DNA of 64,000 bases from Eledone cirrhosa (lineage: Eukaryota). A model generated the notes under the pieces. That model saw only the letters and a list, made by a program, of their open reading frames with translations, searched no databases and was not told where the DNA came from. Below, in pieces: positions 5,323-63,791 of this stretch (within the stretch, counting starts at the first letter, position 1; each line of letters starts with the position of its first letter). The stretch lies in NCBI GenBank assembly GCA_964016885.1, contig OZ024743.1, forward strand, positions 229,028,001 to 229,092,000, given 5' to 3'. The position numbers were made by a program, and so were the translations under genes.

Positions 5323-8300
5323 TGGCGGGTTTTCTACAGCTGGATGCCCTTCCTAACACCAACCACATTTACAGTGTGGGGCTGGGAGGTTTTTACCGTG
5401 TTGCTTACATGGCCACATTGCAGCGTGGACTGTCTGGTGGGTTTTCTACAGCTGGATGCCCTTCCTAACACCAACCACATTTACAGTGTGGGGCTGGGAG
5501 GTTTTTACCGTGTTGCCTACACGGCCACATTACAGCATGAACTGTGTGTTTTTTTGTCGTGACACCTACACGATCTCATTTGTTTCGGCCTGGATGTTGT
5601 GGCACCAACATAACTTTACATTGAAAGGGGCGTTGTGGATAGGGTGGGGGTGGTGGGACGGGGGTGTATTTTGTTAGAGATGCCTACTGACTGTAGTAGG
5701 TTTTACTTTGTATTTAGGTAAGGCGGGTCTTCTCTATTACTGAGTACCGCCAAAGGTCTCGGTCCAGTGACGTTGTCTTGGTGAGGTGTAAGTGTGTGAG
5801 GTCGGAATTTATCAGCTCGTCCCAGGTCTTTCTGGGTCTGCCTATTCCGTGGCTACCGTCTATCTTTATTGCCCTGCACTTTGTTATACAGCTATCGTCT
5901 TTCATGCGCATCACGTGACCATACCAACGTAGCCTTCTCTCGAGTAAACAACATCTGATCCCTCTTATTTCTAATTTTTTCCTTAGTTCGTTTATGCTTT
6001 GCCGTTCACGTATATTACTATTACACATCCAGCGGAGCATGCAAGCTTCGTTTCTCTCTAGTCTGCGTATATCCTCTGCACACAATGCCCAGGTCTCACT
6101 GCCATGCAACATTGCTGTTCGTATGCAGGCATCATACAACCTGTCTTTCATTTTTAGGGAGAACCCTTTAGCGGCTAATAGTGGTATAAGCTCTCTGAAC
6201 TTTTTCCATCCAGTTCTGACTCTAGCTACTGTACTTTCAGAACACCCGCCCCCACTGCTGATTTTGTCACCCAGGTAACGGAAGCTGTCCACTGTTTCTA
6301 TAGAACCCTCTGCGCAGTTGAAAGAGCTAGTATTTAGTGGGCACTTGCTGCTACTTATTGCACCAGAGCACCGGCCACATATAAAATCTATGTTCTTAGT
6401 TAGCTTACTGTGATCCCACTACATCTTTTATGCACCCATACTTTGCATTTGGGACACAAGATGGAGTTTCTACCTACGCCTTTCCTACACACTGAGCATG
6501 GCCACTTCCCGGAAGGGACCGGCGCCTTATTTTCTTTCTTACAAACTAGAACTTTAGTCTTAGCCAGGATAATTTTAAGGCCTTTTGATTCTAGGCCATG
6601 CTTCCATGTTTGGAATTTCTTCTCTAGCTCGGCCATTGATTCAGCTATGAGTGTTAGGTCATCTGCATATAGGAGTTCCCATGGGCAACCAGTCTTGAAC
6701 TCCTCTGTTATAGCCTGAACGGCAATAATAAATAGTAGGGGTCTGAGAACAGAGCCCTGATGGACGCCAACTTTTACGCTAAACTCTTCACTATATTCGT
6801 TGTTAATTCTAACCTTGCTGACTGTTTCTTTATACATGGCTTGTATAGTTCTCACAAGCCATTCATCAACACCTAGTTTTCTAAGAGCCCACCAGATAAT
6901 GGAACGGGGGACTCTGTCGAAGGTTTTCTCCAAGTCGACGAAAGCTAAGTATAGGGGTTTACTTTTAGCTAGGTACTTCTACTGTAGTTGTCGTACAATG
7001 AAAAGAGCGTATGTGGTACTTTTGCCTGACACAAACCCGAACTGCATTTCATCTAGATCGATTCTCTCTCTGATTAGTTGCGCTATTACTTTTTTCGTGA
7101 TCTTCATGACCTGGTCGATTAATTTAATGCCTCTATAGTTACTCCTATCTAGGGCGTCTCCTTTACCCTTGTAGCAGTTAATGATGATGCTGCTACGCCA
7201 GTCCTTCGGAACAAACCCATTCTGTATGACTTGGTTTACTATCCGGGTGACCATGGTGTGTCCCACCGTTCCAGAGGCTTTCAGCATCTCAGCAACTATT
7301 TCCGAAGGCCCAGCCGCCTTACCCGTCTTCATATCTTTGATTGCCTTACTTATTATACTACCTTCGACTAACACTGATGGTCCCTCTATTGGGTCGATGT
7401 GGGGAGACTGTCTTTCTCCCATTTATTCTCCTCATTTAGTAGCCTTTCGTAGTGACACTTCCAAGCTACCTTCTTATCAGTGTCAGTGATGGCAAGTATG
7501 CCATCATCATTAAGTACACACTTCTCCCCGACAATATCACGGTTTTCCTTGACACATTGCCTAACAATCCTGAACACCTCACGTTTTTGGTCCTCGCGTT
7601 GTAGAACATGCTTAAACTTTCTTTCCTCTGCTTCCCTTTTTGCGAAGTACACCTGTCTCCTAGCTTCCCTCCTGGCCACTTGATAGTCTTCTCTACTTCT
7701 CCCATCCCGCCATACTTTCCAAGCCTGCTTTTTGGCCTTAATTGACTCCTCCACCTTACTGTTCCACCACCATGTTACTCTCCTCCTGCCTACAGGCCTG
7801 CTCCAGCCACAGACATCGTCTGCCGCCATCAGCAGGTTTGCTTTCAGGAATTCCCACTGTTCCTCTATATTGTACGACTCTAATTGCTCTTCCTTACTGT
7901 CAAAAGCATCAAGTAATATGCTTTTAAATTTATTTCTGGCTGTGGGGTCCTTTAGCTTCCATATTTTTCTCCTGAGGATAGTCCTCTTCTGCTGTCAAGT
8001 ACGTCTCGTCCTGACTATGAGGTCGCTAATTATCAGTCTATGTTGGGAGGTGCATTCTTCATGGGGGAGTGATTTAGTGTTTACAACAAACACTCTGTCA
8101 CGTCTTCTGGTAAGGATATAATCTACCTGGCTGGTATGTTCCCCTGATCTGTAGGTGATCAAGTGATTGTCTCGTTTTTTGAAGTTAGTGTTACAGATAG
8201 TTAGGTTATTTGCATCACAGAATTCCAGGATTCTGGAGCCTTCCTCATTTCTACTACCAAACCCATAGCCTCCGTGGATTCCGTCATAGCAGTCACAATG

Positions 8301-9460
8301 TTGACCAACGTGGCCATTTAGGTCGCCAGCAATAATTATATAGTCACTGTCGGTTATTTGGGAGGTAGTGAGCATCAGTGTCTCATAGAATCTGTCTTTT
8401 ATAGCGCCAGGCAGTCCGGATTGGGGCTCGTATGCCGATATTACTGTCACAGTAGTTCTATTTAGAACAAGTCTTATTTTAATTATTCTGTCATTTACTC
8501 TATTTACATCTATTATCTTATCCACCCATTTTTCTGCTAACATGATTCCTACTCCACCTATCCCATTGTCATTTCCCACCCAGAAAAGCTTATAGCAACG
8601 TTTTTTACCCACAATGAATCTAGCAGACCAGCCCCTCCACCTGGTCTCTTGGATACAGCAAACATCAACCGCCTTACGTTCAAGCATTTCTACAACCTCG
8701 TTAGAGCGGCCTTTTAAGGTGCCTACATTTATGGTACCAACTCTGAAGTTTTGGATTGTGTTTGGAGGATGGGGCGCAGGGATGGGTGAGGGGTTGGGGT
8801 TATGTTGGCCATCCGCGGCCGAAACAAAGAGGAGGGGGCCTTGCCCTTTCGTCCGGCAGCATGAGGTGAATTTGTCGTTATCTTTGGCATTGTCATCGAG
8901 TGTCCAGATTCTTCAGACTCTCCAGAAATTCCTTAGTCCATCCATCATATCGAAAAGCAGCCAGAAGTGATAGCATAGGCCGTTGACTTGTGATTGGTCC
9001 AAATAATAAGATGGAGAGTGGGGGCGGGAGGGAGGGGTATGGGGTAGTTAGCAAAGAGAAGATTATTTAGAACAAATGGGGTAGTTAGCGAGAGGTTTTA
9101 AATGAAATCTTCGAATTTTGGGGGGCATAATTGGAGAAGCATATAACAGTAATAATAAGCGAATAATGGGGTTTTAAAATACAAGAAGATTATTTAGAAA
9201 CAACCAGACAGAATTATAGAATAGCATTGAGAGAGAGCAAAGATTGGATTTTGGGCGATAATACGGATATATGAATGAATGGACCGATAGCAAAGAGAAG
9301 ATTATTTAGAACAATATGAATGAATGGACCGATAGGCTGGAGAGAGATGAGAAAAATGGCATTTACATTATACTTCGCAGGGACAAGGTCTGACCATTTT
9401 TAAGCGTTGACAAATTCTGAGATTCGTACCTCGCAACAGGTTTATTTATATTTGGAGACA
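5323..9460 (-). mobile_element. Near full-length RTE-clade non-LTR retrotransposon (decayed)
   Basis: Single APE+RT reading frame, ~500-bp pyrimidine-rich 5' region, and a 3' UTR matching the copy at 49610-49875. The 5' boundary is approximate and the (GAT)n tail is missing. Confidence 0.93.
5714..8948 (-). pseudogene. RTE polyprotein pseudo-ORF (APE endonuclease, reverse transcriptase, internal C4HC3 finger)
   Basis: APE motifs VGTINV, IQETRW, AGDLNGH, VDYIL, SQHRLI; RT motifs NYRGIKL, QFGF, FVDLEKTFDRV, GVHQGS, LLYADD, FRYLG. In-frame ATG at 8948; in-frame stops near 8915, 7995 and 6979; 1-nt deletions near 7405 and 6410 relative to the second copy. Confidence 0.93.
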
Positions 9461-11401: not shown

Positions 11402-11846
11402 CACTTTCATTACCTTATTTCTAATGAAAGACACTGCCTATGGTTTGAAAATAATCAAGAACCTGGATGAAATTCGTAAAACAAGTTTTTTTTTTCATTA
11501 TTAAGCTAGTGTATGGCGGGGGATTGGCAGTATCGGTAGAGGGCTCGACGCCATGCTTTGATGCATAGAGTTATGACCCTTGCCATTCTGAGTTCAAATC
11601 CCGCCAAGGTTAACTTTGCCTTTCATCCTTACCGGGTCGATAAAATAAAGTACCAGTAATACACTGAGTAATTGCTGGCCTTGTGCCAAAAGTAGAAACA
11701 ATTATCAAGCTAGTGTTTGGAACATAATAAAGGTTATTATATAAAATCATGATGAAAAGGTTTTACATAAATATAAAGCACTTTAAGATAAACAGCTTAG
11801 CATTGTAGAACCAGGGATGATTTCAAGTGGTTTGCTAACGGAATGT
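11402..11846 (+). mobile_element. piggyBac-type MITE copy interrupted by a SINE
   Basis: Internal motifs gaaagacactgcctat, aagctagtgtttggaacat and tagaaccaggg are shared with 34673-34906. Confidence 0.75.
11513..11700 (+). mobile_element. tRNA-headed SINE (GCCTTTCATCCTTACGGGGTCGATAAAATAAAGTACCAG core, Meta/MESC-like) with a 16-bp TSD
   Basis: A-box-like tggcagtatcgg and B-box gagttcaaatcc; flanked by attattaagctagtgt (11497-11512) and attatcaagctagtgt (11701-11716). The core family name is from recall. Confidence 0.9.
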
Positions 11847-14653: not shown

Positions 14654-14656
<3 letters not shown>

Positions 14657-14694
14657 GAAACAAGAAATGAGCAAACAGAAGATGCAATAGCATG

Positions 14695-14775
14695 AATTGT
14701 ATTAGTTTCAAGCTTCGAAGAAAAATGAGTTACATAGTCAAAGAATCCGGCATTTGCCCTTCATCAGAAAAAAAA
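14695..14775 (-). ncRNA. Degenerate hammerhead-ribozyme-like motif
   Basis: Minus: CUGAUGA (14767-14761) A-GGGC...GCUU GAAACUAAUA (one change from GAAACUAGUA). Stem I is not recoverable; the motif lies ~50 nt from (TA)n. Confidence 0.4.
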
Positions 14776-15187: not shown

Positions 15188-15915
15188 CTATCAGAAGAAC
15201 CACCCTACGGGAGGTTTTCTGCTAGCATATATAGTGTGTATATTGATATATGCAAATGTATATGCACATAGATATAATATGTAAATTGATAATATGCACA
15301 TAAACTGAACAAAGACTGTGTTATACTTACTTCTGTAATCAGTAAAGTAATCCATGATATATTAAAAAAGAGAGGCAATAATGGAGATGGAAAAGCGATG
15401 AAATGTTGAGGGAAAATGTTCATGAATCTTCACTTGAGAATGTCGATGGGAAGCTTCAAGCAGTGAATTTGAAAATAGATGCTGCTGGTATGAATGAATG
15501 AATTACATTTACCAATCTCACAGTACACTACCTGATCAATGGCACCAGCAGTTTTGGGCTTGCTATCTTCAGCCATTATCAGCACAACATGGGCATGAGT
15601 GAGGTCTCATTTTCTGCCACTCTATTGCAGCAGAATGACCCACAACTTTTCCTAGAAGATCTTTTTTCATTATGTCATCCATGAGGCTGTCATATTTGAT
15701 CTTGAAGACTCTTGCATAAATATCAGGACGGTCTCTAGGTTCTTCACCAGGTTGCAAACTATTTTTTATTTCATCCCAGTTAGGGTTAGTTGTTACCGTG
15801 ATGAAATAAGATGGCTTTCCCATGTGTCGAACCACAGTCATCGAATTCTGAAAGCACTCACTGTAGAAGCAAGGGGAACCATAGATTGAAGGAGGAAGAA
15901 TAATTCTCCGACCTG
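15188..15915 (-). mobile_element. Internally deleted Helitron: Rep fragment plus 3' terminus
   Basis: 15188-15360 is the reverse complement of the hairpin+CTAG end at 17632-17817 (here ending ATAG|T); a Rep coding remnant lies upstream on the same strand. Confidence 0.8.
15529..15915 (-). pseudogene. Helitron Rep (HUH endonuclease) fragment
   Basis: GRRIILPPSIYGSP..GKPSYFITVTTNPNWDEI..DRPDIYARVFKIK..IEWQK, frameshifted into PHAH: Helitron Rep motifs I and II. Confidence 0.92.
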
Positions 15916-15919
15916 CACT

Positions 15920-16030
15920 TGTTTCAGACGTTAGACAGTGCCCATGCTGGGGTACCACAATTAAAGGATTTTCTTGACCTCAATTCCAGTACATATATTT
16001 TAAAATCTAGTACTTATTTTATTGATCTCT
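15920..16030 (-). mobile_element. Fragment of a third SINE-like family (gtttcag..ccatgctggggcacc)
   Basis: Related pieces at ~34140-34290 (-), 46150-46290 (+), 46320-46490 (+) and 31310-31400 (-). Confidence 0.55.
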
Positions 16031-16891: not shown

Positions 16892-17817
16892 TCTATATAT
16901 ATAAATATATTCGCGCATGTACAGTATGGACCGGTCTTCGTGCATGTGCACTTCAGACCAGCCTTCGCGCATGTGCACTCCAGACCAGCCTTCGCGCATG
17001 TGCACTCCAGACCAGCCTTCGCGCATGCGCACTCCAGACCAGCCTTCGCGCATGCGCACTTCAGACCAGCCTTCGCGCATGCGCACTTCAGACCAGCCTT
17101 CGTGCATGCATAGTACGGACCAGCCTCCGCGCATGCGCAGTACGAACCAGCTTTCACACATGCGCAGTATGGAACAGACTTTGCGCATGTGCACTTCGGA
17201 CCAGATTTCGCCTATATATATGTCTATGTATGAATAGATATATTTGTGTGTGTGTCTGCATCAGACATAATTTATATGCTATGACATTTATATATAATGT
17301 AATAGCATATAAATGAGCGTACAACAGAGCTTAATCTAAACTATAATAAAGTAAGAAGCGCGAGACTGTGTACAGTTTATAATTTTTTATCCCCTTAGTA
17401 AAATAAGTTGGATTACTTTGAATAAATAATGAATGAATATTACATAATTTATCTACTAAATTTTGTGGCTGTTCATTAAATAAATTTTATTACTTATTTA
17501 AAGATTCATTTCTTTAAAATTTTCAAATGTCAACACTTCCGGTTAGCGATTGTTTAAATAAACATTCATATATTTCCATCACTAATTTTCTCCTAATGCA
17601 GTTTATATATAATATCGTCTTTTTATAATGTATCATGGATTACGTTACTGATTACATAGGACAGTGTAACACAGTCTTCATTCAATTTCTGTGTATATTG
17701 TCAATTACGGTTTTATTTGATGTATCATATCTACATGCATATATAGTTGCATATAATGTCAATATACACACTACACATGCTAGCAGAAAACCACCCGAAG
17801 GATGGTTTTTCTGCTAG
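16892..17817 (+). mobile_element. Non-autonomous Helitron (~926 bp)
   Basis: 5' TCTATATATATAAA at 16892; 3' hairpin ctagcagaaaacca-cccgaagga-tggtttttctgctag ending CTAG|T at 17817. The base before TC is G rather than the canonical A. Confidence 0.75.
16910..17206. repeat. 27-bp CpG-rich minisatellite, 11 units (consensus ttcgcgcatgYgcactYcagaccagcc)
   Basis: Units counted at 27-bp spacing from 16910 to 17180; they generate the 9-aa repeat ORFs in several frames. Confidence 0.97.
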
Positions 17818-18104: not shown

Positions 18105-18502
18105 ACGATATACCGGAAGTGCAACTTTGAAAAGAAGTCAGTTTTAGAATATTTACTTTTTACAAAATTATTTATTTACGAAATTAAGCACATAAATTAA
18201 GTAATATTCATTCATTGGTGGATTGGCAGTATCGGTAGAGGGTCAGACGCCATGCTTTGACGCATAGAGTTACGGCCCTTCTCATTCTGAGTTCAAATCC
18301 CGTCGAGGTTAACTTTGCCTTTCATCCTTACGGGGTCGATAAAATAAAGTACCAGTAATGCACTGGGTAATTGCTGGCCTTGTGCCAAAAGTAGAAACAA
18401 TTATTTATTCAAAGTAATCCAACTTATTTTACTAACTGGATTAAAAGGAATAAACCGTATGCAGTCCCGCAGTCCTTGCTTTATTATAGTTTAGATTTAG
18501 GC
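18105..18502 (-). mobile_element. Inverted, diverged copy of Helitron internal segment 17330-17550, split by a SINE
   Basis: ttagtaaaataagttggattactttgaataaataatgaatgaatattac (17396-17443) reappears reverse-complemented on either side of the SINE. Confidence 0.8.
18216..18405 (+). mobile_element. tRNA-headed SINE (same family as 11513-11700), well preserved
   Basis: Full ~190-bp match, CpGs retained, aattatt tail. Confidence 0.92.
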
Positions 18503-27367: not shown

Positions 27368-27679
27368 ATATTAATAATAATTGTTTCTACTTTAGGCACA
27401 AGGCCAGCAAATACTCAGTGCATTACTGGTACTTTATTTTATCGACCCCGTAAGGATGAAAGGCAAAGTCAACCTCGGCGATATTAATAATAATTGTTTC
27501 TACTTTAGGCACAGGGCCAGCAATTACCCAGTGCATTACTGGTACTTTATTTTATCGACCCCCGTAAGGATGAAAGGCAAAGTCAACCTCGGCGGGATTT
27601 GAACTCAGATCGTAAAGGGACGTAACTATGCTGGAAAGCATGGCGTCCGATCCTCTATCGATACTGCCAATCCACCGCC
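27368..27679 (-). mobile_element. SINE (11513 family) with its 3' 113 bp tandemly duplicated
   Basis: 27368-27480 is repeated at 27481-27594; the full copy ends at 27679. An older relative follows at ~27700-27895. Confidence 0.92.
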
Positions 27680-28183
27680 TATGATTTCTAATTTAATGAT
27701 TTCTAATTTAAGCTAGCAATTTGTTGGTTAGGGAAAGTCAATTATATCTACCCCAGTACTTTACTGGTACTTTATCAATCCCAGATGGATGAAAGGCAAA
27801 GTTGATCTTGGTGAGGTTTGAACTCAGAACATAAAGGGTAGTAACTAAATGCTGCAAAGCATATTATTGAACACTTTAAAGATTCTGCCAATCTGTCACA
27901 CTTACCAAATCAATAACAATAAAAAGAAAAACAATAATAGCCGATTATCAAAACTGATTAATTAGCAAAAAAAAAGCTAATATTGATTAATCTGCAAAAT
28001 GACCGATATGATCAATACTAATTATCTGCTGATTAATCAGTACAACACAAATAGTGTGTACATGTGAACTACTGTATGGTAGTCCCTGGTTCCAAAACTG
28101 AAATCTTATATGAAACATATAGGATGAAACTTGACTGCATTTTAGAAAGTTAAAAATGATGGGTATGAGGTGTCAGCAGTGGT

Positions 28184-40600: not shown

Positions 40601-40799
40601 ATTATTATTACAATTACAAAGAAGCTGATTACTAAGTAGATACTGACATGAGTGTCTGTTTGAAATTATAAATACAGTAGTGGCATGTGTTGAGCAGGTG
40701 TATGTATGCATACACACACTCAAAGGATATGTGACATGCATGTGTACATATATACATTGATGATGCCGTCTGTGGAACATAATGTTTATGAGAATGTTC

Positions 40800-44581
<3,782 letters not shown>

Positions 44582-45187: not shown

Positions 45188-45378
45188 TGGTGGATTGGCA
45201 GTATCGGTAGAGGGTCAGACGCCATGCTTTTCAGCATAGAGTTATGGCCCTTTATGATCTGAGTTCAAATCCTGCTGAGGTTAACTTTGCCTTTCATCCT
45301 TATGGGGTCGATAAAATAAAGTACCAGTAATGCACTGGGATAATTGCTGGCCTTGTGCCAAAAGTAGAAATAATTATT
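45188..45378 (+). mobile_element. tRNA-headed SINE (11513 family)
   Basis: Full-length match to 18216-18405. Confidence 0.92.
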
Positions 45379-45714
45379 GTAATTATTGAAGAGTAACTTG
45401 GCTGTATGGTTAAGGTGTTTATCTCATAACCACAAAGTTTTATAGTTCACTTCCATTGTGTGGCATCTTTGACATGTACCTTCTATTATAGTCTTAGATT
45501 GACCAACACTTGGTGAGTGGAATTCGGTTTATGGAAACCAGTAGAAGCCAGATATGGCTAGGTAATTAAAAAGTTTGCTTTGCAACCAATCAAATATCAG
45601 GTGACTTCCACTGCATAGAATCTTGGAAAAGTGTCTTCTATAGTTGGGTGGAATTTGGTAGACAGATACTGTAGAAGCTTGTTATACATAATATATGTGT
45701 AATAGCAATATATT

Positions 45715-47479: not shown

Positions 47480-47864
47480 GCAAAAGTTCTATTTAAATTG
47501 TTGGGATACAACAAGCAAATATTTTTATAACTGATATAAAGCACTCGACAAGTATTTGGAGTAAATATACTATATTAACAAATGGAAACTATATTTATAA
47601 AACCATATTTATTTCATTATACATATTTCAAGGATACCATGTTAAATTATGGTAAAATACAATATATACCAGTTTTATAAATAAACATTGACGTACCCTT
47701 TCAAAATGCAACCGTTACTTTTGCAAGACATCAGGATAGTGGATTTGTTTATTTTAGTAAGTCGTTTTGTTTTTCCTTAACAAAACGACTTACTAAAATA
47801 AACAAATCCACTATCCTGATGTCTTCCAAAAGTAACTGTTGCATTTTGAAAGGGTACGTCAATG
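47480..47864 (-). mobile_element. (TA)n-anchored hammerhead-family element (core deleted) ending in an 86-bp fold-back
   Basis: 47480-47735 aligns with 63503-63775 apart from a 15-nt deletion; inverted arms at 47686-47771 and 47779-47864. Confidence 0.85.
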
Positions 47865-49987
47865 ATAAGAAGGTAGCTTGGAAGTGTCACTACGAAAGGC
47901 TACTAAATGAGGAGAATAAATGGGAGAAAGACAGTCTCCCCCACATCGATCCAATAGAGGAACCAGCAGTGCAAGTTGAAGGTAGTATAATAAGTAAGGT
48001 GATATGAAGACAGGCAGGGCCTTCGGAAATAGTTGCTGAAAGCATCTGGAACAGTGGGACACACTATGGTCACCAGGATAGTAAACCAAGTCATACAGAA
48101 TGGGGTCACTCCGAAGGACTGGCGTAGCAGCATCATCATTAACTGCTACAAGGGTAAAGGAGATGCCCTAGATAGGGGAAACTATAGAGGCATTAAATTA
48201 ATTGACCAGGTCATGAAGGTCACAGAAAAAGTAATAGCGCAACTAATTGGAGAGCGAATTGAACTAGATGAAATGCAGTTGGGTTTGTGTCAGGTAAAAG
48301 TACCACAGACGCTCTTTTCATTTTACGACAACTACAGGAGAAGTACCTAGCAAAAAGTATACTTAGCTTTTGTTGACTTGGAGAAAGCCTTTGACAGAAT
48401 CCCCTGCTCCACTATCTGGTGGGCTCTTAGAAAACTAGGTGTTGATAAATGGCTTGTGAGAACTATACAAGCCATGTATAAAGAAACAGTCAGCAAGGTT
48501 AGAATTAACAACGAATATAGTGAAGAGTTTAGCGTAAAAGATGGTGTTCATCAGGGCTCCGTCCTTAGCCCCCTACTATTTATTATTGCCCTTCAGGCTA
48601 TAACAGAGGAGTTCAAGACCGGCTGCCCATGGGAACTTCTATACGTAGATGATCTAATGCTCATAGCTGAATCAATGGCCGAACTAGAGAAGAAATTCCA
48701 AACATGGAAACATGGCCTAGAATCAAAAGGCCTTAAAATTAACCTGTCTAAGACTAAAGTTCTAGTTTGTAGGAAGGAATATAGGGCACTGGTCCCATCT
48801 GGGAAATGGCCATGCTCAGTGTGTAGGAAAGGAGTAGGCAGAAACTCCATTTTATGTCCCAAATGCAAAGTATGGGTGCATAAAAGATGTAGTGGGATCA
48901 CAGGTAAGCTAACTAAGAATATAGATTTTATATGTGGCCGGTGCTCAGGTGCAATAAGTAGCAGCAAGTGCCCACAGAATACTAGCTCATTCCATTGCAC
49001 AGATGGTTCTATGGAAATAGTGGACACCTTCCGTTACCTGGGTGACAAAATCAGCAGTGGTGGAGGGTGCTCTGAAAGTACAGTAGCTAGAGTTAGAACG
49101 GGATGGAAAAAGTTCAGAGAGCTTATACCACTATTGGCCGCTAAAGGGTTCTCTCTAAAAATGAAAGGCAAGCTGTATGATGCCTATATATGAACAGCAA
49201 TGTTACATGGAAGTGAGACCTGGGCATTGTGTGCAGAGGATATATGCAGACTGGAGAGGAATGAAGCTTGCATGCTCCGTTGGATGTGTAATAGTAATAT
49301 ACATGAATGGCAAAGCATAAATAAACTAAGGGAGAAATTAGGAATAAGAGGGATCAGATGTTGTTTACTCGGGAGAAGACTAAGTTGGTAAGGTCACGTG
49401 ATGCGTATGAAAGACGACAGCTGTATAAAAAAGTGCAGGGTGATAAAAATAGACGGTAGCCACGGAGTAGGCAAACCCAGAAAAACCTGGGACGACTTGA
49501 TAAATTCCAACCTCACACACTTACACCTCTCCAAGACAATATCACTGGACTGAGATCTTTGGCGCTACACAGTAATACAGAAGACCCCCCGCCTTGCCTA
49601 AGTACAAAATGAAACCTACAGTCAGTAGGCACCTCTAACAAAATACACCCCCGTCCCACTACTCCCACCCCACCATACCACCTCTTTCAATGTAAAGTTA
49701 TGTTGGTACCACAACATCCAGGCCAAAACAAATGAGGTAATGTAGGTGTCATGACAAAAAAACACACAGTCCACGCTGTAATGTGGCCGTGTAGGTAACA
49801 CGGTAAAAACCTCCCAGTCCACACTGTAAATGTGGTTGGTGTTAGGAACGGCATCCAGCTGTAGAAAACCCGCCAGACAGTCCTATACGAGCAAGACAAC
49901 CAATCTTGCCTCAAGTGGGAAAATTCCCATCCAAACCCATGCAAGCGTGGAAGATGGACGTTAAACGATGATGATGATGATGATGAT
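47863..49987 (+). mobile_element. 5'-truncated RTE LINE, same family as 5323-9460, with intact 3' UTR and (GAT)n tail
   Basis: Closely similar RT (GVHQGS, YVDD instead of YADD, C4HC3 finger, FRYLG); frameshifts and stops; ends ggacgttaaac(gat)7. Confidence 0.95.
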
Positions 49988-54534: not shown

Positions 54535-54940
54535 ACCTTTGGAGCAAAACTGCCTAAAACCATTCTTCAACACAAACCTCTTTTTTTTTTAAAAACTTAC
54601 CATTATAATTTTATGTAGGAACTTTCTACTTATTCTTAACACCACCTTAATAATTGCTTCTATTTTTGGCACAAGGCCAGCAATTACCCAGTGCATTACT
54701 GGTACTTTATTTCATCGACCCCGTAAGGATGAAAGGCAAAGTTAATCTCAGCGGGATTTGAACTCAGATCATAAAGGGCCATAACTCTATGTTGCAAAGC
54801 ATGGCATCCGACCTTCTACCGATACCTGCTAATCCACCAGTTTGTTATATTACTAAATTCTTCCAAAAGTTTTGATTCTTTTCAAAATTATTTGAAAATC
54901 TCAGGCAATGTCTTTCATTAGAAATATGGCAACAAAAGGA
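54535..54940 (-). mobile_element. piggyBac-type MITE interrupted by a SINE
   Basis: aggcaatgtctttcattagaaatatggcaacaaaagga|ttaa is the reverse complement of the MITE left end. Confidence 0.75.
54649..54839 (-). mobile_element. tRNA-headed SINE (11513 family)
   Basis: Full reverse-complement match; an older relative lies at ~54985-55190. Confidence 0.92.
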
Positions 54941-58900: not shown

Positions 58901-60867
58901 CACTCTCAGGTAATTTAGCTGGAAATATAAGCATTAATCTACCAAAGAACAGATGCAATGATGCATTATTTCCAAGAAACTCGACGTAGAGGATTATAAT
59001 CTTTAAAATTTAATATTATAAAACTATGTGACCAAAATGACAAGTGAATATTTCCTGAAATACATCAAGGACATATTAAATATTTCCAAGGTATCATTTC
59101 AATGCCTTGTTTATTGTTATTTTTAATATTTAATGTTCTATTTGCATTGCTATAACCTTCAAAAAATTGTTTCCTATAATTTTGTTTATAACATTATTTT
59201 GTGACTGTGGCAAGAGGGTTAAAGTACTCGATATACAAGATGGCCAACTGAATACATGTGTCTTTTTTCTCCACAAATTCTTGTCATTTTCCCCACTCCT
59301 TTTTCTCATCACTCTTTACTTTCCTCTTCTATTTCTAACTCTATCTTGAAGAACTAGTGTCCGATCGGTTAAGACTCTCTTGCTTCTATTTCAAGCATTA
59401 AACTAATCTATTTCTTTCATGTACTGTGCTGTTTGTTTTGTTATTTCTGTTTACCATTTACATATATATACATACATATACTTATATATATATAGCATCA
59501 TAGCACCCTACTGTGATGGATTTTATTCAAGGCAAGAACATTAATGTCAAAATCTTTCATCAATATTTTATGTTTGCTTTCCATGCCTGTATAGGTTGTC
59601 ATAGTCTAAGACTAGACAAGTCAGAGATACCTTATCTTGCTCATATCTTCCATATTCAGCATGGCTTCTACAGCTGGATGTTTTTTCTAAGCCTAACCAC
59701 TCCACAGAGTATATTGGGTGCTTTTTATTGGGACACCAGCATGACCATTTTAGTGTAGTGGGGGCATTTTTCATAGCACTCGCACTAAAGAAGTTGTCCT
59801 ATACTACACAATCCTCTTTACCCTACATTTGAGAAAATAGATTAAAATGTTTGTCCGCTAAGGTTGGGGTTTGTTTTTGACACTCAGAATTAATTATAAT
59901 GCTTGCTAATGCAGGGCCAGAAAAGGAGAGGATTAAAAATAGTGAAGTTATTCTCTAACTAGAAAATACACTGTTAACTAAGCTCCAGTTATCTGACAAT
60001 GTTTACAGAGCCATTTGCTTTAATCAAATTAGCAACATCCAATTACATTACTAATTTATTTAGAAGAAAAATTGGCATTGCAAATACATTTTTGAAGGCT
60101 TTAAGATTGAGTCAAGTCTTGAATAATAAATTTCTTCAAAATCATTGACACATAACAGAGCTGTGGGCCATCAATTCCAAATCTTCAAGGTTTATTATAA
60201 TGAAGTAAAATTTAAGATGCATGTTTGCATGTGTATGCCCCCCACTCTCTCCCTCTCTATCTATCTATCTCTGAAGGAGTCTTGATTGCTAACTATACAA
60301 GAGATATTTGGTTCAATCATGGCTCCAGCTTTATCAATTTTGTTTTTCAAACCATGCTGTATGTATGTTTGTATGTATGTATAAGTATGTACTATTGAAT
60401 ATTAAGTGAATGGTGGGTGTGCATGGTGGAATACTCTGTGAATAGATATATACAGTCTTCATTCCTTTCGAGTAAGCAGGACAGAGAGCGTGATTTGAAG
60501 AAGTGCAATGAACAATTGTTGAAAGTGTATGATCAGAGTGTAAAGGGGAAGAACAAAGTAATGGGTTTGTAGGGAGATTCAGTAGAGTAATTGGATTGGG
60601 TAGCTACAGAGCAACATTCTAATAGAAATTTGTGCAATAGGAGAGAATGAGTAATCACTATTACAAAGAAGATAGAGAAAATTGGTATTGATATATAATA
60701 GTGTGTGTGTGTGTGTGAGTCCCAGGTTCAGTTGGGGGTAACCACAGTTAGTAAGGTCCTCAATACATTAGTAGAGTGTAAATATCAAGTTTAATAACTA
60801 GTTCTAGTCCTGTGAAAGCTATTTCTATATTATACTTTATACATACACATATATATATATATATAAA

Positions 60868-61200
60868 TCAAAATTGACACAGTAAAAACCTGTGAGACCA
60901 TTACTCACCAGAATACTCGATACTTGGGGTAGAAGAGTGTGGTAATATGAAAGAGTCAGGACTCTGACAGGTGAGCTCTTGCCATTTCAACAGCTAGTTC
61001 TAAAATTGCTGTTGAAATGGCAAGAGCTCAGCCGTTCATATATATATATATGAAAGATTTTCTACTCTGCGGATGAGCTGTTGCAGTTTTGACAGTAAGC
61101 AGGTAATGAATGAGTAAGAGCTCAGCTTCTTCATTATAATACCTACACTCCACTTTCTTAAGCATCGAGTACTAAGCTGAATAGTGGTCTTACTAGTCAT
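60868..61200. mobile_element. Two oppositely oriented fragments of a (TA)n-associated element, with a 23-bp perfect hairpin
   Basis: 60893-60965 is a diverged reverse complement of ~61117-61191; perfect arms 60972-60994 and 61008-61030; hammerhead-like remnants. Confidence 0.65.
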
Positions 61201-61219
61201 AACTTGTAGCACCTCATCC

Positions 61220-61252
<33 letters not shown>

Positions 61253-61312
61253 AAATATTAAAAAAATAAGGAATAAAACAATGAAACAGTTCCTTATATT
61301 AAACAAAAAAAG

Positions 61313-61465
61313 TTCATTATTTAACGATCGTTTCTAGGACATATATGTGTTAGAAATGGCATGCATATTCAACAGATCTATGTACAAAATTATACAAAAT
61401 TATACAAATTATCAAATAGAATATACATACCAACACATACATATGCCGTCTTCAGAAATAATGAA
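61313..61465 (-). ncRNA. Type I hammerhead ribozyme motif with a long stem II insert
   Basis: Minus: UUCAUUAUUU-CUGAAGA-(stem II cggcauauguauguguu / aacacauauauguccua)-GAAA-CGAUCG-UU-AAAUAAUGAA. Stem I is a perfect 10 bp; stem III is palindromic; the predicted cut follows GUU (61323/61322). The base of stem II is imperfect. Confidence 0.8.
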
Positions 61466-61709
61466 ATATATTTATTGATAATAACAACAATTCAAAATTA
61501 CAGGTCTGTTTGGGAGCAGAGTTCAAATAGACCAATGAAATACATAAAAATATATCAAGAAAATACAGTTAGGTGTGTGTATATATGTAAGTAATTTCGT
61601 TCACAGATATGCATAAAAATATATGTTCACATGCATACGCATGTCGAAAAGATGTATGTAAATACAAACATTCAGGGCTAATGTCTCTGTATGTTTATAA
61701 TCTAGACAA

Positions 61710-61812
61710 AATACACATACGTATATAAACTTATATACACTCATATATACACACATATACATACATTCATACACACGCACGCATATACACATAAACCTAC
61801 ACATACCCACGA

Positions 61813-61852
<40 letters not shown>

Positions 61853-62086
61853 GTATATATTATTATTATAACTATATGGATATTAAGGCGCACACATAAA
61901 CACTGCCACATATATTTACATCTAGATGCAGAACTAAAGTAGGTAAAGGGATTCAGTAATTACTGAGGGTGTCAGACAACAGCCTGTTTATAAATGTATC
62001 TATAAATTTAGAAATAAAAAGAAATATATTAAAAAGAAATAAACAAGTAAAATATATACTCATACATAAAATACACACCGATAAAC

Positions 62087-62134
<48 letters not shown>

Positions 62135-62542
62135 ATATATAGAGACACATACATATACATATATAAATACATAGACACACATCCATACACACATATATAT
62201 ATATACATATACTTACAACACACATATATATATACACATATATGTACATACACATACACACATACATACATATACATATATATATACACACATATATATA
62301 CATACATATATACACACACATATACATATACATACACGCACATATACATACACACACACACATACATATACGTATATATACATACACATACACATATCCA
62401 TGTATATATATACACATACAACCACACGCTCACACACAACTCAGACATACATAAATAAAGAGATATACATACAAACATATATATATATAGATATATACAT
62501 ACACATAAATATATATACACACACACACACACACATACACAT

Positions 62543-62605
<63 letters not shown>

Positions 62606-62756
62606 TAAATAAATACACAGTCAGACAATTATGCACATATATACACATACATACACACATCTCTACAAATATACATACACATACATACACACATATATAT
62701 ATATATATATACACATATATATATATAGACATATATATATATATGTATATACATAC

Positions 62757-62801
<45 letters not shown>

Positions 62802-62900
62802 CATACACACTTATTTACATGCGTACATATGTATTTTTATACTCACATACAAACACCCAAACATACATACATACTTACATACACATACATACATCCACGC
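61710..62900. repeat. Compound (TA)/(CA)/(TACA) low-complexity region
   Basis: Direct reading; source of the Y/I/V/C/M-rich spurious ORFs. Confidence 0.92.
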
Positions 62901-62954
62901 TTACAAATACGAATAATTATAGGGGGGGGGGGGATTAAAATTATTAGTGGGAAA

Positions 62955-63450
62955 TAGTAAATATAGGTTTCAAGGAACATAGAATATTAATCTGCATTTA
63001 GATCATAATATGTGTTTACATAGTAGTTTCAGTATTAGGAAATGTAAGAAAGAAGGCAAAATTATGCATTTTAATATAAGTAGACTATTAATTATAGGTT
63101 AACTAAATTAAAATTAGTTAATATATTGATTTCTAAGGTGTATACTACTTAGGTTTATAATATTTAAAGCAGAATTTTGAAGTTAAACAGTAGTAGAGTA
63201 TTAATTATAGCATAACTAAATTAAAAATATTAACATTATGGTATCAATTTTAGGAAATGAATTTAGTAATAGGGAAAACCAAATCAAGTATTTCATCGGT
63301 AGTAGAATATAAATTATAGGTTAACTAAATTAAAAATTATATATTAATTTCTATAGTATATGTTAATTAGGTTTATAATAATTAAAGCAGATTTTGTATT
63401 TTATCTATAGTAGAATATAATTATAGGTTAACAAAAATTAAAATTAATAT
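62955..63450. repeat. AT-rich ~110-bp tandem repeat, 4-5 units alternating between two types
   Basis: agtaga.tat.aattatagg/cttaactaaattaaaa recurs at ~63079, 63192, 63301 and 63408. Confidence 0.8.
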
Positions 63451-63468
63451 ATATATATATGATTTATC

Positions 63469-63502
<34 letters not shown>

Positions 63503-63506
<4 letters not shown>

Positions 63507-63791
63507 AAAGTTCTATTTAAAATTGTTGGGATACAACAAGTAAATATTTTTATAACTGATATAAAGCACTTGACAAGTATTTGGAGTAGATATACGATAT
63601 TAATAAATGGAAACTATATTTATAAAACCATATTTATTTCATTATACATATTTCAGGGATACCAAATTAAATTATGGTATGCCTTCATCAGACAAAATAC
63701 AATATATAACAGTTTTACAAATAAGCTTTGACGTACCCTATTAAAATGCAACCATTGTTTTTGGAAGCCATCCGGATGACTTTCAAAAACA
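63503..63791 (-). mobile_element. (TA)n-flanked hammerhead-carrying element ending in a short fold-back
   Basis: TA tracts on both sides; paralog at 47480; terminal palindrome 63756-63791 (16/18 pairs). Confidence 0.85.
63635..63699 (-). ncRNA. Compact type I hammerhead ribozyme motif
   Basis: Minus: UAUUUUGU-CUGAUGA-AGGCAUACCA-uaauuuaauu-UGGUAUCCCU-GAAA-UAUGUA-UA-AUGAAAUA. Stem I is 8 bp (2 GU), stem II 9/10 bp, stem III short and near-palindromic; the predicted cut follows AUA (63643/63642). Confidence 0.8.

What the first reader, a model, noticed from the sequence alone, without database searches (positions are those of the whole stretch)
60868..63791. (TA)n-anchored, hammerhead-carrying non-coding elements: candidate microsatellite-targeted Penelope-like/retrozyme system
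Seen: six short non-coding pieces, from about four families unrelated in sequence, start at 14654, 47480, 60868, 61052, 61253 and 63503. Each has a complete, partial or decayed hammerhead core (CUGANGA...GAAA..UH). In each, the 3' end of the ribozyme-sense strand runs into a (TA)n or (CT)n(TA)n tract about 50-140 nt past the predicted cut. Three end distally in a fold-back. Known: Penelope-like element pLTRs and retrozymes carry type I hammerheads with short palindromic stem III. Inference: several families share one mechanism, priming reverse transcription at TA microsatellites at a fixed point downstream of the ribozyme. The element class is known; these families and their shared polarity may not be described.
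Basis: partly seen in the sequence, partly recalled or inferred. Interest (0 to 1): 0.85.

Follow-up and report, generated by a model that had tools for sequence, protein, structure and literature searches.

The report
Hydra-type Penelope retroelement ends in microsatellites
These short islands beside TA repeats are pieces of repeated elements, likely the tail ends of a known group of animal jumping genes (Hydra-type Penelope elements); only two of the six keep a whole hammerhead ribozyme motif, and the less familiar feature is a small RNA hairpin shared by their tails that may tell the copying enzyme where to start.

Summary
Partly confirmed. All six pieces abut a TA or (CT)n(TA)n tract, fall into four sequence groups, and three end in a fold-back. 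Only two (63504-63791, 61253-61465) hold a complete type I hammerhead (2 hits against 0.035 in shuffles), cutting 139 and 70 nt before the TA tract. 47480 has lost CUGAUGA by deletion; 14654 has the core letters but doubtful stems; 60866 and 61052 are one family, head to head, with no hammerhead in any strand order. Reads show the 60.7-61.6 kb pieces are dispersed repeats and reveal a missed seventh piece whose other copies carry a Hydra-type hammerhead. The proposed system is published: Hydra-clade Penelope-like elements, including one from Octopus, prefer (TA)n, carry a sense-strand hammerhead 30-153 nt from the 3' end (23 of 24 families), and Penelope elements form 5' palindromes. No RT/GIY-YIG gene was found in the window and no genome was available, so the mobiliser is inferred. 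Not found in the papers searched: a bulged hairpin with a covarying upper stem, 39-62 nt before the microsatellite in five pieces and in two published Hydra tails, a candidate enzyme-binding or start signal.

The parts
63504..63791 (-). E63: 3' end of a Penelope-like element with a complete type I hammerhead (CUGAUGA at 63691, GAAA at 63654, predicted cut after 63643), 139-nt tail and 36-nt palindrome at its 5' end (63756-63791); TA tracts at both ends
   Evidence: (stems I 8, II 3 plus 6, III 4 with palindromic sequence)
63566..63587 (-). Bulged tail hairpin of E63 (one defect), 62 nt before the TA tract
47480..47864 (-). E47: second copy of the E63 family, same TA junction, 15-nt deletion removing CUGAUGA, longer fold-back (47686-47864) at a different turning point; far end joins a 5'-truncated RTE-like LINE
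47541..47562 (-). Bulged tail hairpin of E47 (no defect), 61 nt before the TA tract
61253..61640 (-). E61: type I hammerhead (CUGAAGA at 61455, GAAA at 61334, predicted cut after 61323), 10-bp stem I, perfect palindromic stem III, 114-nt rod-like stem II; 70-nt tail; abundant repeat also present in organism B; 5' end not reached (reads continue at 61640)
   Evidence: (z -5.5)
60866..61037 (-). E60a: repeat with 5' fold-back (60967-61035) and bulged tail hairpin (60938-60913, 48 nt before TA); no complete hammerhead; TA at both ends
61052..61219 (+). E60b: decayed relative of E60a, head to head with it across an (AT)7 tract; tail hairpin 61147-61172, 47 nt before the (CT)n(TA)n tract; no complete hammerhead
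60718..60829 (-).
   Evidence: (loose ends at 60796 and 60800 in 3 of 4 runs; 60814 and 60815 majorities)
14654..14775 (-). E14: CUGAUGA (14767) and GAAA (14709) beside a 45-nt TA tract; stems doubtful, possibly a minimal hammerhead split by a T run; family status untested
   Evidence: fails descriptors; fold z +0.25

Best explanation
The pieces are copies of several repeat families that are likely the 5'-truncated 3' ends (pLTR plus tail) of Hydra-type Penelope-like retrotransposons or their non-coding derivatives, inserted in dinucleotide microsatellites. Inferred cycle: a GIY-YIG endonuclease of an autonomous element elsewhere in the genome nicks (TA)n DNA; its reverse transcriptase primes on the nick and starts inside the RNA, 30-150 nt downstream of the hammerhead, probably guided by a bulged hairpin in the tail; copying stops early and the 5' end is closed by self-priming or inversion, which leaves the fold-backs; the hammerhead would cut as a dimer through its palindromic stem III but is likely dispensable for insertion, so copies lose it. 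Shown here: the two complete motifs, their orientation and distance to TA, the shared junction of two copies, fold-backs at different points, repeat nature, the covarying hairpin. Inferred: the enzyme, the priming, cleavage, the role of the hairpin.
For: Two complete type I motifs against 0.035 by chance, both 70-139 nt upstream of a TA tract on the same strand, where 873 of 16946 background positions (5.2%) have one 30-155 nt downstream. E47 and E63 end at the same base before TA but fold back at different points. Reads: 9080 raw reads of run X12 lie on 60740-61640, only 187 of them 99% alike or more, and 85% run on into unlike sequence. Published Hydra elements: (TA)n preference in 26 of 27 listed families including Hydra-1_Obim from Octopus bimaculoides, sense-strand hammerhead, often with an unpaired letter on each side of stem II, one family with a 5'-truncated inverted copy; cut-to-end 30-153 nt in 23 of 24. 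E63 and the read consensus beside E60up have that same core layout. pLTRs with 18-bp and 38-bp 5' palindromes are described in rotifer PLEs (PMC3846280 passages). The tail hairpin in five window pieces also stands in the tails of Hydra-2_Amil and Hydra-2_Ajap with different, still paired upper stems, partly in Hydra-1_Crog (supplement passages read by eye). Four read majorities (60758, 60913, 60933, 61163) each restore the hairpin or its flanking AC. 805 reads end loosely at 61290 in TA-like letters, 37 nt inside E61's end, as an optional 30-40-nt PLE tail would give (agreement only 0.38).
Against: No RT or GIY-YIG of a PLE among 148 of 300 ORFs of 50 aa or more scanned; the 32-aa frame upstream of the E47 hammerhead hit 4 proteins at E 2e-5 to 3e-4, and the 2 read are unrelated repeat-rich ones. 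No genome was held and five collection scans found no other copy, so no family alignment and no link to a coding element. Four of six pieces fail the hammerhead descriptors. The hairpin count alone is not above chance (6 hits with at most one defect, shuffle mean 2.46, maximum 6), its folding energy is unremarkable (z about 0), the descriptor was drawn from these pieces, and it was not seen in E61, E14 or, by eye, in two short-tailed published Hydra elements. E60up ends at (CA)n and E60b at (CT)n, not pure TA. E61 has two unpaired letters before GAAA and an alternative fold 1.2 kcal/mol more stable.
Confidence: 0.8

Rival explanations
1. Some pieces, E61 above all, are solo monomers of non-LTR retrozymes that self-cleave from tandem arrays, circularise and are copied by a PLE enzyme. 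This overlaps with the best explanation (same enzyme) but makes the hammerhead essential.
For: E61 has no coding trace, a strongly self-paired rod (z -5.5), and read majorities at 61340 and 61440 turn two G-U pairs of stem II into Watson-Crick pairs. Solo retrozyme monomers are described (bioRxiv 10.64898/2026.07.22.740005, part 1 and passages).
Against: No tandem second unit for any piece in the window; retrozymes are defined as 150-450-nt tandem repeats (PMC7229834 passages); four pieces were inserted or kept without a whole hammerhead.
Confidence: 0.15
2. The TA tracts are not targets: they grew from AT-rich element ends after insertion, or the association is a by-product of a microsatellite-rich genome.
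For: The window is full of TA tracts and the tails are AT-rich.
Against: Background chance is about 5% per site; E47 and E63 share the exact junction base; TA lies at both ends of three pieces, as insertion into a tract would give; (TA)n preference is reported for Hydra PLEs.
Confidence: 0.08
3. The pieces are SINE-like passengers of the RTE-type LINE present in the window.
For: The inverted arm of E47 joins a 5'-truncated RTE-like LINE at a 2-nt microhomology; APE and RT domains are present in two LINE copies.
Against: The LINE ends in a (GAT)n tract, which none of the pieces share; E63 has no LINE beside it; the junction is a single event.
Confidence: 0.04

Closest known systems
Hydra clade of endonuclease-positive Penelope-like elements, including Hydra-1_Obim of Octopus bimaculoides (Craig et al. 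2021, PMC8557442; section 11, passages and supplement part 2 plus passages read)
   Same: (TA)n target, sense-strand type I hammerhead near the 3' end with unpaired letters flanking stem II and palindromic stem III, cut-to-end distance 30-153 nt, inverted 5'-truncated copies; the tail hairpin is present in two published consensus tails.
   Different: No coding sequence here; six short motifs from the window's pieces had no exact match in the supplement, so these families are not among its consensus sequences by that test; two pieces lack a hammerhead; E61 has a 114-nt stem II.
Poseidon PLE of Anolis carolinensis, PAc (Frangieh et al. 2024, PMC11167929; parts 1-2 of 4 read)
   Same: Nicks AT-rich DNA, starts reverse transcription internally at two sites downstream of the hammerhead in an AC-rich stem-loop; hammerhead cleavage not needed for insertion in vitro.
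   Different: Other clade; I did not compare its stem-loop with the bulged hairpin here; no (TA)n microsatellite specificity shown.
[quoted passage not shown]
   Same: Mostly single motifs from truncated PLEs, palindromic stem III, some pairs on opposite strands 100-700 bp apart.
   Different: E63 and E61 have longer stems I and III than the minimal form.
Metazoan non-LTR retrozymes (Cervera and de la Pena 2020, PMC7229834 passages; Li et al. 2026 preprint, part 1 and passages)
   Same: Short, non-coding, AT-rich, type I hammerhead, PLE-derived.
   Different: No tandem units in this window; circles untested.

Membership tests
Type I hammerhead ribozyme | CUGANGA, GAAA and NUH core with three stems | tested here: met
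   Met for E63 and E61 only; Rfam models give no match
Type I hammerhead ribozyme | Same core in E47, E14, E60a, E60b | tested here: not met
   E47 lacks CUGAUGA; E14, E60a fail all six strand orders, E60b gives one weak hit
Type I hammerhead ribozyme | Self-cleavage at the predicted site | not testable with these tools
   Needs in vitro transcription
Hydra-clade PLE | RT plus C-terminal GIY-YIG ORF with Hydra motifs linked to the 3' end | tested here: inconclusive
   None in 148 of 300 window ORFs; no genome to look for long copies
Hydra-clade PLE | Insertion into (TA)n | tested here: met
   E60up ends at (CA)n and E60b at (CT)n(TA)n
Hydra-clade PLE | Sense-strand canonical hammerhead 30-155 nt from the 3' end | tested here: met
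   E63 139 nt, E61 70 nt; E60up family about 90 nt from read loose ends
EN+ PLEs | 5' truncation with inverted copy or palindrome at the 5' junction | tested here: met
   Fold-backs in E47, E63, E60a; inversion in E60up
EN+ PLEs | Optional 30-40-nt tail (two 3' end points) | tested here: inconclusive
   Loose ends at 61290, 37 nt inside E61's end, agreement 0.38
EN+ PLEs | Partial tandem (pLTR-ORF-pLTR) arrangement | not testable with these tools
   No genome; none in the window
Non-LTR retrozyme | Tandem 150-450-nt units each with a hammerhead | tested here: not met
   No tandem unit in the window; rest of genome not seen
Non-LTR retrozyme | Circular RNA monomers | not testable with these tools
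   No RNA run was available to lay
Non-circularly permuted hammerhead (types SGC, CSG, GCS; PMC10085705 passages) | Core blocks in non-circular order with three paired stems | tested here: not met
   No such order in any of seven pieces with at most one core mismatch, none in the window with exact core

The most novel reading that the evidence does not exclude
A small bulged hairpin (N-CUC, 3 free base pairs, loop, 2-nt bulge, GAG-N, then AC or GC), conserved with compensatory changes from this genome to coral and sea-cucumber Hydra elements, is the RNA signal that the Hydra-type reverse transcriptase binds to set its start point; it, not the hammerhead, is what unrelated non-coding families need to be copied into TA microsatellites, so hammerhead-less elements such as E60a and E60b can spread.
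Probability: 0.45. Interest if true: 0.62.

Novelty: new member of a known kind. Interest (0 to 1): 0.4.

Why it matters
The system as proposed (hammerhead-bearing PLE ends in TA microsatellites, one polarity) is already in the published Hydra-clade data, including an octopus family, so it adds families rather than a new kind. The tail hairpin would matter more: how PLE enzymes pick their RNA and their internal start site is open, and a 22-26-nt motif with covariation across phyla gives a direct mutational test in the existing in vitro PLE assay and a way to recognise non-coding PLE parasites that lack a ribozyme.

Tried and rejected
Rfam scans of the window and of 60800-61600: only sub-threshold microRNA-like hairpin matches, no hammerhead or other ribozyme. 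Exact-pattern scans for E63 and E61 motifs in metagenome (2), viral (2) and prokaryote genome (1) collections: 0 matches. Summed contig depth is not read as copy number. Rewired hammerheads suggested by earlier AI notes: not found. Idea that the frame upstream of the E47/E63 hammerhead is a Hydra ORF end: a faint by-eye likeness only, phmmer gave 4 hits of which the 2 read are unrelated repeats; rejected as unsupported. E61-E63 homology: not above AT-rich background. A covariance model of the hairpin found only its four training copies in 1-61790, next best E 0.52, so no independent copy in the window. Supplement search with six window motifs: no match; searches for the hairpin's 3' half gave mostly coding-region chance hits. 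Look-ups of earlier findings by sequence and by nearness: nothing. Supplements of the bioRxiv preprint were not available; Repbase Hydra tails were not seen beyond 20 nt, which limits the hairpin survey to the six consensus sequences in the Craig supplement.

Full report
Setting. The window is AT-rich, microsatellite-rich animal DNA with RTE-like LINE pieces and a Helitron fragment. That it is octopus-like is my impression plus earlier AI notes, not a test. No genome was held, so family evidence comes from copies inside the window and one read-laying run.

Observation. I call the pieces E14 (14654), E47 (47480), E60a (60866), E60b (61052), E61 (61253) and E63 (63504). All abut TA or (CT)n(TA)n tracts. 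E47 and E63 are one family (89% column identity, identical base at the TA junction; tails 133 of 138 identical, 5' parts 65 of 77). E60a read on minus and E60b read on plus are one family (74%; 0 of 2000 shuffles), lying head to head across an (AT)7 tract. Other pairs are not above background. Fold-backs: E47 84 of 89 pairs, E63 16 of 18, E60a 29 of 34; the two copies of the E47/E63 family turn at different points.

Hammerheads. Rfam finds none. A type I descriptor allowing unpaired letters beside stem II finds 2 sites with stem I of 6 bp or more, E63 and E61, against a mean of 0.035 in 200 shuffles; at the loosest setting a third site (37824, 2938 nt from any TA tract) appears and 2.5% of shuffles reach two. 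E63 has stems of 8, 3 plus 6, and 4 bp, cut 139 nt before TA; E61 has a 10-bp stem I, a perfect 8-nt palindrome in stem III, a 114-nt rod as stem II (z -5.5) and is cut 70 nt before TA. The open-core folds lie 2.0 and 1.2 kcal/mol above the minimum. Only 873 of 16946 background positions have a TA tract 30-155 nt downstream. E47 lacks 15 nt including CUGAUGA. E14 has the core letters, but no descriptor accepts it and its fold is unremarkable. E60a and E60b fit no strand order, circular or not, except one weak hit in E60b; the read majority at 60894 does not supply the missing G of GAAA.

Reads (4 of the 14 runs, laid at 80% likeness on 60740-61640). Run X12 gave 9080 reads, 187 at 99% or more, 85% running on into unlike sequence: these are dispersed repeats. 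E61 is the most covered part in X1 and X12 and is also in organism B (X5); E60a is well covered in X1, X4 and X12 and absent from X5; E60b is barely covered. No variant is listed at E61's core or stem I among the 40 rows shown (73 rows were hidden); majorities at 61340 and 61440 turn two G-U pairs of stem II into Watson-Crick pairs. 805 reads end loosely at 61290 in TA-like letters (agreement 0.38), 37 nt inside E61's end. Loose ends in X1, X4 and X12 (agreement 0.63-0.75) show that other copies run on from 60796 into the reverse complement of 60800-60829 and then into a CUGAUGA core with a 3-bp stem II flanked by single unpaired U; with the majorities at 60814 and 60815 (91615 and 90200 of 92248 depth in X1) this gives a 4-bp stem III and a UA cut site about 90 nt from a (CA)n tract. 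In the window's copy the stretch with stem III and cut site is inverted without duplication. This rests on loose-end consensus letters, and stem I is only about 4 bp by eye.

What is known. Craig et al. 2021 (PMC8557442; passages, section 11, supplement part 2 and passages) describe the Hydra clade: canonical hammerheads, almost all families inserting in (TA)n, one from Octopus bimaculoides with four copies ending at one site, one family with a 5'-truncated inverted copy. Arkhipova et al. 2013 (PMC3846280, passages) report 18-bp and 38-bp palindromes at pLTR 5' ends, head-to-head inverted repeats and a 31-bp optional tail. Frangieh et al. 2024 (PMC11167929, parts 1-2) show AT-rich nicking, internal initiation downstream of the hammerhead, and no need for cleavage in vitro. 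Cervera and de la Pena 2014 (PMC4209133, parts 1-2) found most such motifs as single copies from truncated PLEs. A repeat annotation of Octopus vulgaris lists 31 recently active Penelope-like families and does not use the word ribozyme (PMC13282606, passages). So target, polarity, distance and fold-back are all known PLE traits.

The tail hairpin. The shared part is a bulged hairpin 39-48 nt before the microsatellite (3 hits, shuffle mean 0.03, but the descriptor was made from them). Four read majorities each restore it or its flanking AC; cross-laying of reads between the places could contribute, though only 91 of 4818 X1 contigs fit two places. E47 has the same fold with a different upper stem, no defect, 61 nt before TA, and E63 with one defect, 62 nt. 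I saw E47 by eye before widening the descriptor, so it is not a blind test. With at most one defect there are 6 hits against a shuffle mean of 2.46 (maximum 6), not significant by count; 4 of the 6 lie 39-62 nt before a microsatellite where background is 372 of 10656. On the five window copies 30 of 35 cells pair, two pairs change on both sides, 12 of 500 shuffles reach the covariation score, and the sequences are related, so this is modest. Stronger: by eye the same fold stands in the tails of Hydra-2_Amil (coral, 26 nt from the end) and Hydra-2_Ajap (sea cucumber, 25 nt), with a G-C closing pair and two different paired upper stems, and partly in Hydra-1_Crog (43 nt); it was not seen in Hydra-1_Obim or Hydra-1_Ajap, is doubtful in Hydra-1_Amil, and is absent from E61 and E14. 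The word hairpin does not occur in the Craig main text, and searches listed no paper on such a motif; subscription papers are not covered. An earlier AI note on this genome reports what seems the same hairpin; that is a repeat, not independent support.

Mechanism and rivals. Most likely these are truncated 3' ends of Hydra-type PLEs or non-coding derivatives copied by such an enzyme into microsatellites (0.8). Shown: motifs, polarity, junctions, fold-backs, repeat nature, hairpin. Inferred from related systems: nicking of (TA)n, internal start, dimeric cleavage, the hairpin's role. No PLE protein was found in 148 of 300 ORFs, so membership of the Hydra clade by its defining protein is untested. 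The retrozyme reading lacks tandem units but stays open for E61. Growth of TA after insertion and mobilisation by the neighbouring LINE are unlikely.

Verdict. Observation partly confirmed (2 of 6 complete hammerheads); interpretation largely right but published. New members of a known kind; interest 0.4, carried by the tail hairpin.

Noticed in passing
window 47864-49987: The inverted arm of E47 joins a 5'-truncated RTE-like LINE at a 2-nt microhomology and in frame (ORF 47681-48007); the rest of the arm is not found after the LINE's (GAT)n end. Either a LINE insertion with deletion or a template-switch chimera.
   Followed up: partly
window 5427-8912 (-) and 47865-49883 (+): Two copies, about 90% alike, of a LINE with APE endonuclease, RT and a PHD-like finger after the RT.
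   Followed up: no
window 60796-60829: Inversion without duplication of about 30 nt in E60up, whose free end meets TA-rich flank; resembles twin priming (term recalled from L1 work).
   Followed up: partly
window 15572-15979 (-): Helitron helicase N-terminal fragment (Pfam PF14214, E 3.5e-32).
   Followed up: no
window 40790-44470: About 3.7 kb of nearly pure (TA)n with regularly spaced AA interruptions in the first part and TT interruptions near the end, so the array changes orientation inside.
   Followed up: no
window 16929-17211: 27-nt GC-rich minisatellite, 10.5 copies.
   Followed up: no
window 11523-11717, 18222-18404, 27377-27893, 45188-45386, 54638-54839: A dispersed repeat of about 190 nt, 85-93% alike, with a partial tandem at 27377-27893; SINE-like, not examined.
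   Followed up: no
window 60895-60939: Read loose ends at 60896 (337 reads, agreement 0.85) suggest copies in which the E60a tail segment is repeated in tandem; joints show several other fold-back points.
   Followed up: no
window 14768-14775: A T run separates E14's CUGAUGA from a possible 5-bp stem I; E14 may be a minimal hammerhead broken by homopolymer growth.
   Followed up: partly
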